NCBI GenBank assembly: GCA_964016885.1
Contig: OZ024756.1
Coordinates: 23,622,001 to 23,686,000 of the forward strand
Source: Eledone cirrhosa
Lineage: Eukaryota
Direction: 5' to 3'
Length of the DNA stretch: 64,000 nucleotides
Shown here piece by piece: positions 53,353-54,621 of this stretch (positions are counted from its first letter, which is position 1; every line of letters starts with the position of its first letter). The position numbers were made by a program, and so were the translations under genes. The notes below the pieces were generated by a model. It saw only the letters and a list, made by a program, of their open reading frames with translations, made no database searches and was not told the DNA's origin.

Positions 53353-53404
<52 letters not shown>

Positions 53405-53458
53405 TAGTAACACAACAGCTAGTTCACCATACCGAGAACAATTGTTTCACCTTATGCG

Positions 53459-54232
53459 GATTACAAGGTAGACTTTGCTTCTAATCCCACGTGTAGACTA
53501 CTAAACCCGGCACGCACGGAAATGGGACTAGTCAGTAAGGCTATACTTAGGAATATAGTTAAGCCCATTAGGACCAAGTCCAACCTGTCCCAGTGGGAGA
53601 ACAGCGACTCCGTCATTAAGTGGTTTAACTCCTTCAACTCCAAAAAAAGCAAAGTTCACGCAATTCGACATTGTAGATTTTTACCCATCGATCTCAGATA
53701 GACACTTTCCCATAGGTCACAAATACCGCTCCATCTTTAACAGACACAGAGTAAAACTAGGGTACTCCTGCGCTAAGAATATGACAGTCCTAAGAGCGGC
53801 ACCCCGCCAGGATGCTCTTGCCGAAAGCCTGAAGCTTGTCCCCGCTGTAGTTTATGAAGCTATTGTCACTTCCAACCGACTAAATCAACCACAGGAGGTC
53901 AAATCCTATGTGGGTATGGCTGAGGGTCGATTTAAGGAACGCTTCCTGAACCATCAGTCGAACTTTGGGACAAACGATCATCCACGAAGCTCGCAAGCCA
54001 CGTATGGTCCCTCAAAGACTCAGGTATAGACTACTCCATTCAATGGAAAGCTATCACTAACTCCAAGCCATACGCAAGGGGCAATCCGTCTTGTGGAGTG
54101 TGTATTGAAGAAAAGATAAATATTCTAAGGAGATTACGCAAAAGCGATTGCCTAAATTCAAGAAATGAAATCTTCTCACGTTGTCTACATGTCTGGAAAC
54201 ACCTTTTGAATAACTACAAAGCTCCGGATTGA
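53459..54232 (+). pseudogene. PLE RT/GIY-YIG ORF remnant
   Basis: [110 protein letters not shown]. Confidence 0.9.
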
Positions 54233-54404
54233 ATAACAACAACATTCTTCTTTTCTAATCAACTCGAACATTTTATTCCGGACATTCGCAGTTATCTCCA
54301 TTACACCTTTCGCCCGTGGTTTTGTATTGCTTGGGTGAAGTGATCGTTTCTGTGTATGCGCGTTCATACGGTGGTTCTTCCTGTTCCGTATAACCATTAC
54401 CAGT

Positions 54405-54445
54405 CCGAGCTGAAGATCCGCATAAGGTGAAACAATTGTTCTCGG
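54405..54445 (+). ncRNA. Minimal hammerhead ribozyme in the PLE pLTR
   Basis: ccgag-CTGAAGA-tcc(gcataa)ggt-GAAA-caattg-TT-ctcgg; palindromic caattg. Confidence 0.85.
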
Positions 54446-54621
54446 TATGGTGAACTAACTGTTGTGTTACTACTTCTACCAAACTCGTCCCATGGACTGA
54501 GTGGTCTACCACTACGCATATTACCTTCCAGTGTTCTACCTCTCTCTCTATATATATATTAGGCCGTCAAGTATGGTCATATGTTTTTTTCTACAAATTT
54601 CATACTTGATGACCCAATGTA

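What the first reader, a model, noticed from the sequence alone, without database searches (positions are those of the whole stretch)
53402..54540. Linking copy: PLE RT/GIY-YIG remnant with inverted pLTR and hammerhead
One insertion joins the fold-back/hammerhead/(TA)n architecture to a PLE ORF. The ORF is a patchwork: FYPSISD runs in frame straight into RHFP, so the YxDD-containing RT core is absent, and more is missing around the CxC..CP linker. This suggests template jumps during reverse transcription (inference).
Basis: partly seen in the sequence, partly recalled or inferred. Interest (0 to 1): 0.75.

Follow-up and report, generated by a model that had tools for sequence, protein, structure and literature searches.

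The report
Broken Hydra-clade Penelope retrotransposon copy
This is a dead, shortened copy of an abundant Penelope-like jumping gene that carries the marks of the known Hydra group; its ribozyme motif and mirror-image end are standard for such elements, and its missing pieces were likely lost by ordinary DNA repair rather than by special copying jumps.

Summary
53402-54540 is a 5'-truncated Penelope-like element (PLE) in (TA)n. It has a 60-nt inverted arm (59/60 identical), a minimal type-I hammerhead motif and a broken ORF. Fuller copies in this genome show a telomerase-like RT and the published Hydra-clade motifs (RW[K/R], DKT, CxCX5C, CxxC/CxH, no CCHH). It is therefore not Naiad, Neptune or Poseidon, and no shared in-frame UGA was seen. 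The family is abundant (1,095 exact hammerhead matches). This copy lacks about 753 nt of RT core plus 16, 23 and 7 nt; all four junctions and the inversion junction occur once in the genome, so it is no non-autonomous subfamily. Template jumping is not needed: a Tc1 DNA-transposon family of similar divergence loses 4-50-nt pieces at the same rate (0.50/kb) with the same microhomology excess. Against this, the PLE rate does not rise with divergence, and the large deletion stays undecided. The best extra: 34 of 44 head-to-head insertions pair one end at site A with one at site B, 62 nt apart, which fits published dual RT start sites. The scan noted Hydra ends in another genome and two-site ends in this one before. 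Known kind, low interest.

The parts
53353..53401 (.). (TA)n target microsatellite, left flank; no target-site duplication can be read
   Evidence: sequence; 55 of 68 site-A ends in the family are followed by (TA)3
53402..53461 (-). Inverted, truncated pLTR arm ending at site A; lacks the CUGAAGA half of the hammerhead core
   Evidence: 59/60 identical to 54416-54475
53458..53462 (+). Inversion junction: 4-nt microhomology GGAT (5 nt if one later C-to-T change is allowed); private
   Evidence: context in fuller copies; 1 match in the genome with up to 2 mismatches
53458..53698 (+). RT N-terminal part up to FDIVDFYPSIS; 1-nt insertion in the A-run at 53642-53648
   Evidence: 92-95% identical to 39 other scored places
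53696..53698 (+). Junction of the about 753-nt in-frame deletion (RT core with YRDD and most of the thumb); 3-nt microhomology AGA; private
   Evidence: exact 3-nt microhomology in 48 of 56 spanning segments; 1 match in the genome
53696..53843 (+). End of thumb and RT-EN linker, with a 16-nt deletion after 53783 (1-nt microhomology) and a 23-nt deletion after 53840 (3-nt microhomology); the part between them is out of frame
   Evidence: each junction once in the genome
53844..54232 (+). C-terminal GIY-YIG-like endonuclease remnant with CxxC-x2-E and CxH; 7-nt frameshift deletion near 53966-53969; stop at 54230-54232
   Evidence: Atlas look-alikes of the intact domain are GIY-YIG-named clusters, a lead only
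54233..54478 (+). 3' UTR / pLTR up to end site A (54478)
   Evidence: 68 of 181 family arms end at element position 1070-1080
54405..54445 (+). Minimal type-I hammerhead motif; predicted cut after 54440 (GUU)
   Evidence: sequence; same layout as Hydra-clade motifs in File S2 of PMC8557442; 1,095 exact core matches, 0 in the reversed control
54479..54540 (+). 62-nt 'tail' between end sites A and B
   Evidence: 97 of 181 arms reach position 1131-1139, 16 of them read-through into the 5' UTR of tandem copies
54541..54559 (.). (CT)n(TA)n right flank
   Evidence: 37 of 97 site-B ends are followed by (CT)3
40010..40365 (-). Second, shorter head-to-head copy of the same family in the window (A end plus B end, an internal EN piece and about 14 nt of filler)
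   Evidence: 89-92% identical pieces; sequence

Best explanation
It is a dead, 5'-truncated copy of an abundant Penelope-like retrotransposon family with Hydra-clade motifs, likely inserted into (TA)n by two target-primed reverse-transcription events on opposite strands and likely eroded afterwards by microhomology-mediated host repair. Shown: anatomy, family, clade motifs, private junctions, two fixed 3' end sites, A+B pairing, deletion statistics. Inferred from PMC11167929 (a Poseidon-clade protein cuts and extends both target strands and starts at two internal RNA sites that bound the tail): one cDNA would start at site B and run about 1.9 kb into the ORF, the other would start at site A and stop after about 60 nt, and the two would be joined at a 4-5-nt microhomology. 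The inverted arm is thus likely a second priming event, not a jump. The three small deletions are likely post-insertion repair (about 70%); the 753-nt deletion is about 55% repair, 45% RT jump. The hammerhead is predicted to be a weak, dimer- or protein-assisted motif with no role at this locus.
For: Fuller copies: ORFs up to 722 aa. An AlphaFold model of one (pLDDT 93) has telomerase RTs as its top 8 Foldseek rows and top VIA row (Z 17.2, rmsd 4.1, 276 aligned). Hydra motifs in the 119-row alignment (one family ORF plus 118 homologs): DK[T/S] 118, YRDD 119, CxCX5C 116, CxxC..E 117, terminal CxH 111, RW[K/R] 104, matching the clade definition. Junctions private: 1 match each in 3.0 Gb. Small deletions in 123 other family segments: 80 in 159 kb (0.50/kb); mean microhomology over all 89 deletions 1.98 against a null of 0.74. 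In 40 Tc1 copies at 2.4% divergence: 17 in 34 kb (0.50/kb), 2.3 against 0.72, rate difference p=1.0. The Tc1 rate rises with divergence (p=0.03 on three bins). Deletions of 50 nt or more occur in 16 of 123 other segments, at scattered places. Ends: 34 of 44 head-to-head insertions are A+B, 2 A+A, 0 B+B, 8 with another end (p=9e-9 against random pairing of A and B). Literature assigns microhomology deletions in PLEs and LINEs to repair.
Against: In the PLE family the small-deletion rate is flat with divergence (slope p=0.68; zero intercept rejected p=0.001). The younger subfamily has no fewer deletions than the older one (34 of 51 unbiased events, p=0.007 against proportionality). That is what deletions made at insertion would give. 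This copy has 3 small deletions where 0.44 are expected (p=0.01) and is among the least diverged of its subfamily (2.75%, rank 6 of 66). Tc1 elements can also lose sequence in gap repair (established knowledge), so the control is imperfect, and it is small (17 events). No tree with labelled Hydra sequences was built, and no ribozyme or RT activity was tested.
Confidence: 0.72

Rival explanations
1. The same Hydra-clade copy, but the deletions were made during insertion, by the RT slipping or jumping forward on its RNA at short microhomologies.
For: Flat deletion rate with divergence and a non-zero intercept. Four deletions in one little-diverged copy. One inverted arm (L084) has 4 small deletions in 642 nt that its sense arm lacks. 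Multi-piece 5' junctions in short copies show that switching happens at insertion. All junctions are private.
Against: Equal rate and microhomology in a transposon that never passes through RT. No family-wide overdispersion (p=0.25); a p=0.01 tail is expected about once among 124 segments. The flat slope is confounded by noisy divergence, lower detection in diverged copies, mixed subfamilies and score-ranked sampling. Low-divergence PLE and Tc1 bins do not differ significantly (p=0.16).
Confidence: 0.22
2. It is a member of a non-autonomous, internally deleted subfamily that was itself amplified.
For: Some small deletions recur in other copies (a 17-nt and a 19-nt deletion each in two segments), so inheritance of deletions exists in the family.
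Against: All five junction patterns match only this locus with 1-2 mismatches allowed. None of 56 spanning segments has the large deletion. The best other copies are 83-92% identical over the long 3' match.
Confidence: 0.03
3. The insertion was kept because its sense-strand hammerhead trims the 3' UTR of the neighbouring gene (candidate last exon 52245-52544).
For: Same strand, 1.86 kb past the stop codon; core and stem I intact; weak LRRCT match on the exon, below cut-off.
Against: The motif is as in over a thousand other copies; stems II and III are minimal and need a dimer or protein in published cases; the gene model is only my reading of the sequence.
Confidence: 0.03

Closest known systems
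Hydra clade of C-terminal-EN Penelope-like elements (Craig et al. 2021, PMC8557442); nearest published family seen: Hydra-1_Obim
   Same: Single ORF under 3 kb, RT then C-terminal EN, RW[K/R], DKT, CxCX5C linker, CxxC and CxH around the conserved E and N, no CCHH, hammerhead in the pLTR with the same core layout, (TA)n insertion.
   Different: Not Hydra-1_Obim itself: roughly half identical by eye over the stretch shown in the supplement (not computed) and a different hammerhead. The supplement lists 'no pLTR' for that family, while this one has tandem and inverted pLTRs, a 62-nt tail and over a thousand copies.
PAc / Poseidon_Ac of Anolis (Frangieh et al. 2024, PMC11167929)
   Same: Two internal RT start sites that bound the tail, both strands cut and extended, AT-rich target, hammerhead upstream of the start sites: the working model for ends A and B.
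   Different: Other clade. There the tail is 30-40 nt and lies in the ORF start; here it is 62 nt and lies upstream of the likely start codon, followed by about 160 nt of 5' UTR. In vitro no strand difference in start site was seen, whereas genomic insertions here pair A with B.
Adineta vaga Penelope copies and Hebe LINE with microhomology deletions (PMC3846280, PMC2861651)
   Same: Incomplete copies flanked by inverted pLTRs with an internal microhomology-mediated deletion; a tail on one arm; deletions assigned to DNA repair.
   Different: Other PLE clade and host; Hebe microhomologies are 5-14 nt, here 0-3 nt at the four junctions.
Minimal type-I hammerheads of metazoan PLEs (Cervera and de la Pena 2014, PMC4209133)
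   Same: Conserved core with short stems in pLTRs, often as close pairs on opposite strands from truncated PLEs.
   Different: Here the inverted arm has lost half of the core, so this locus holds one motif; activity untested.

Membership tests
Penelope-like elements | Telomerase-like RT | tested here: met
   Model of family ORF L081: top 8 Foldseek rows and top VIA row are TERTs. The window copy has lost the core.
Penelope-like elements | GIY-YIG endonuclease | tested here: inconclusive
   No Pfam hit on family ORFs; Atlas look-alikes at 0.94-0.96 include GIY-YIG-named clusters; strand-strand-helix layout in the model and alignment to the published Hydra EN by eye. The domain was not folded and searched alone.
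Penelope-like elements | pLTRs in partial tandem or inverted arrangement, optional tail on one end | tested here: met
Hydra clade | C-terminal EN, single ORF, element under 3 kb | tested here: met
   Family ORFs and element span of about 2.4 kb
Hydra clade | RWK-type motif and DKT in place of DKG | tested here: met
   RWR and SDKT in fuller copies; 104 and 118 of 119 rows. This part lies upstream of the window copy's truncation.
Hydra clade | CxCX5C linker | tested here: met
   CSCRKPEAC in fuller copies and, out of frame, in the window; 116 of 119 rows
Hydra clade | No CCHH in EN; CxxC and CxH beside the conserved E and N | tested here: met
   No conserved Cys between linker and the C-terminal CxxC; CxxC 117 and CxH 111 of 119; both present in the window frame 53936-54232
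Hydra clade | Hammerhead motif in the pLTR; (TA)n preference | tested here: met
Hydra clade | Groups with Hydra families in an RT phylogeny | not tested
   Labelled reference sequences exist only in the paper's supplement and were not available as tool input; compared by eye only
Naiad/Chlamys | N-terminal EN, no canonical hammerhead; Sec-recoded UGA in some | tested here: not met
   EN is C-terminal, hammerhead present; the most frequent in-frame TGA at any position is 7 of 104 alignments; SECIS not searched because no shared UGA exists
Neptune / Nematis / Penelope-Poseidon | DKG motif, CCHH in EN, CX2-5CxxC linker (or no linker in Poseidon) | tested here: not met
   DKT, no CCHH, CxCX5C
Minimal type-I hammerhead ribozyme | CUGANGA and GAAA core with closing stem I and NUH site | tested here: met
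   54405-54445; not detected by Rfam
Minimal type-I hammerhead ribozyme | Self-cleavage | not testable with these tools
   Needs an in vitro assay; monomer fold not above shuffles
Non-autonomous deleted subfamily | Deletion junctions shared by many copies | tested here: not met

The most novel reading that the evidence does not exclude
Hydra-clade PLEs insert by an obligately asymmetric double priming: the two RTs of a dimer start at different fixed RNA sites 62 nt apart, one on each target strand (34 A+B, 2 A+A, 0 B+B insertions), and this RT also skips forward at microhomologies, leaving an age-independent load of internal deletions. The family's near-intact copies would make both points testable in vitro.
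Probability: 0.25. Interest if true: 0.5.

Novelty: new member of a known kind. Interest (0 to 1): 0.2.

Why it matters
The copy itself is ordinary debris. The family extends the thinly sampled Hydra clade with a high-copy member that has clear pLTR and tail anatomy. Its strict one-A-one-B pairing of ends puts a number on a pattern known only qualitatively ('tail often at one end') and gives a direct prediction for how PLE dimers complete insertion, which is still open. The Tc1 control is a caution against reading microhomology deletions in retroelements as template jumps.

Tried and rejected
Rfam: no hammerhead hit on the element or among the 150 listed window rows. Pfam: nothing on the window frames or on three family ORFs. 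PDB sequence searches with one ORF and with the 119-row profile: nothing significant. The repeat finder was swamped by microsatellites; BLAST in a script was used instead. No RNA holder listed for the region, which says nothing on expression. Three contig sets of one sample gave only short pieces of many family copies and no piece that spans the locus, so no allele test was possible. VIA and Foldseek rows covered only the RT part of the model; the EN fold was not tested alone. A first candidate DNA-transposon control (L154 fetched from the wrong place, then L155, a short element) was dropped for a Tc1 family found with PF13358. A first deletion caller missed the large and the 7-nt deletion of this copy and was replaced; the second still misses several large deletions, so those were counted from BLAST chains. 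Selenoprotein reading rejected. Shared-deletion subfamily rejected. Earlier-finding look-ups by place and by sequence returned nothing.

Full report
Observation. Between (TA)n at 53353-53401 and (CT)n(TA)n at 54541-54559 lies a 1,139-nt element. Its first 60 nt are the reverse complement of 54416-54475 with one mismatch. At 54405-54445 is a type-I hammerhead motif: 5-bp stem I, CUGAAGA, a U-U base with 2-bp stem II, GAAA, a short stem III and a GUU site. Rfam does not detect it and the monomer fold is unremarkable (z -0.78). It has the layout of the Hydra-clade motifs tabulated in File S2 of PMC8557442. One frame runs FDIVDFYPSISD into RHFP as reported.

Family. The element found 5,180 first-look candidates, of which 40 were scored; the best other long matches were 83-92% identical. 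An exact 26-27-nt hammerhead pattern occurs 542 + 553 times, against 0 in the reversed control. A protein search with the RT core of one copy scored 139 places with open frames up to 722 aa. Twenty were fetched; none shows a complete ORF, but together they cover it. One 628-aa ORF has 946 homologs among 7,997 scored candidates, the best 120 at 37-50% identity and nearly all unnamed. Its model from a 119-row alignment (pLDDT 93.3) has telomerase RTs as the top 8 Foldseek rows and the top VIA row (Z 17.2, rmsd 4.1, 276 aligned). The EN part resembles GIY-YIG-named Atlas clusters (0.94-0.96, a lead).

Clade. Craig et al. 2021 (PMC8557442; I read passages, section 11 in full, supplement part 2 of 59 and search hits in the supplement) define Hydra by short length, C-terminal EN, RWK, DKT, a CxCX5C linker, no CCHH, CxxC and CxH near the end, a hammerhead and (TA)n insertion. 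Fuller copies show RWR, SDKT, YRDDG, CSCRKPEAC, CxxC-x2-E and CxH. Across the 119 rows the counts are 104, 118, 119, 116, 117 and 111. The nearest published family I saw is Hydra-1_Obim, about half identical by eye and with another hammerhead, so this is a different family. No tree was built, and Repbase and Dfam could not be checked. The highest in-frame TGA frequency at any codon is 7 of 104 alignments: no selenoprotein.

Lesions. Against 56 segments that span both sides, the large deletion is 753 nt in 24 (range 694-762), in frame in 39, with an exact 3-nt microhomology in 48; none of the 56 has the deletion. Smaller losses are 16 nt after 53783 (1-nt microhomology), 23 nt after 53840 (3 nt) and 7 nt near 53967 (0-2 nt, ambiguous), plus a 1-nt insertion. 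The inversion joins at GGAT, or GGATC before one substitution. Each of the five junction patterns matches once in the genome, at this locus, with 1-2 mismatches allowed. So this is a one-off copy.

Jumps or repair. From the fetched loci I took 154 family segments of 400 nt or more, kept 126 after removing duplicates and dropped 2 more duplicates. Deletions were called against six natural copies each; junctions with more than 4.5 mismatches were left out. The 123 segments other than this one hold 80 deletions of 4-50 nt in 159 kb (0.50/kb). Mean microhomology over all 89 deletions is 1.98 against 0.74 at random, and 27 of 89 have 3 nt or more (p=5e-11). Sixteen of the 123 have a deletion of 50 nt or more, four of them over 500 nt. 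As a control without RT I used a Tc1 family (42 loci, 40 kept): 2.4% divergence, 17 deletions in 34 kb (0.50/kb), microhomology 2.3 against 0.72, no rate difference, and a rate that rises with divergence (p=0.03). Host repair therefore suffices. Published work assigns such deletions in rotifer Penelope and Hebe copies to repair (PMC3846280 and PMC2861651, passages). Against this reading: the PLE rate is flat with divergence (slope p=0.68, zero intercept rejected at p=0.001); the younger subfamily (2.5%) has no fewer deletions than the older (4.3%); and this copy has 3 small deletions where 0.44 are expected (p=0.01) at only 2.75% divergence. Family-wide dispersion is Poisson-like (p=0.25). Sampling was ranked by score and divergence is noisy, so neither trend is decisive. 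Tc1 gap repair also weakens the control. I put the small deletions at about 70% repair and the large one near even.

Ends and mechanism. Of 181 family arms with a readable 3' end, 68 stop at site A (window 54478) and 97 at site B (54540), 16 elsewhere (some loci overlap, and 16 B arms read through into tandem copies). Of 44 head-to-head insertions, 34 are A+B, 2 A+A, 0 B+B and 8 have another end (p=9e-9; one locus gave two nested rows, and the finding itself, also A+B, was excluded). Frangieh et al. 2024 (PMC11167929, parts 1-3 of 4 read) showed that a Poseidon protein cuts and extends both target strands and starts at two internal RNA sites that bound the tail, and that its hammerhead is protein-assisted and dispensable in vitro. 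I infer two priming events, one from B (long arm) and one from A (short arm), joined at a microhomology. That the tail is often on one end only is in print. In four library searches I saw no title or abstract that counts this pairing or describes this family; that is a narrow search.

The 'link'. The copy ties its own family's short fold-backs, such as 40010-40365 and most of 30 hammerhead-anchored loci, to a PLE ORF. Six other window repeats gave no BLAST hit to the family. The general link is published (PMC4209133, part 1 of 4; bioRxiv 10.64898/2026.07.22.740005, part 1 of 5). A recent octopus repeat annotation (PMC13282606, passages) does not use the words Hydra or hammerhead in its main text; its supplements were not read and may list this family.

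Earlier notes. e1-10336371 reached the same clade verdict in another genome, and e1-10310822 noted two fixed end sites for another repeat in this genome. Both are unchecked AI notes. I had the clade reading before seeing them. I had fetched the 3' ends in the same turn and counted the pairing afterwards, on this family only.

Verdict. Real, well explained, a new member of a known kind. Interest 0.2.

Noticed in passing
window 52245-52544 (+): Looks like the last coding exon of a membrane protein (splice acceptor, weak LRRCT match E 0.007 below cut-off, hydrophobic helix, short tail). The PLE copy starts 858 nt past its stop, on the same strand.
   Followed up: partly
window 40010-40365 (-): Second copy of the family with three pieces: inverted arm, about 90 nt of EN, about 14 nt of filler, then the pLTR with tail; the two arms differ at about 5 of 96 nt.
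   Followed up: partly
window 50015-50139, 52660-52775, 53010-53250, about 61700-61850: Other fold-back repeats in (TA)n, two with hammerhead-like cores; frequent in fetched loci (9-28 loci each) but unrelated to this family by BLAST. Possibly ends of other PLE families.
   Followed up: partly
L036 (minus strand) and L031/L032: ORF pieces of other PLE families with YRDD or CxCX5C motifs, one at about 66% nucleotide identity to this family, next to copies of it: more than one Hydra-like family in the genome.
   Followed up: no
L158, L160, L162-L164, L166, L168, L169, L172, L179: A young Tc1 family, 97-99.7% identical over 1.4-1.6 kb, several with open 350-aa frames.
   Followed up: no
L188-L214 (several): Many copies of the control Tc1 family match from the same reference position 813 onward with the far inverted repeat close by: likely a non-autonomous subfamily.
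   Followed up: no
L038: A non-LTR element with a long RT frame and a zinc-finger-like frame beside a family copy.
   Followed up: no
window 59745-59817 (-): tRNA-like match, 74 bits.
   Followed up: no
L031/L032 and L077/L078: Pairs of near-identical loci 0.15-0.34 Mb apart on one contig: local segmental duplications that carry family copies.
   Followed up: no
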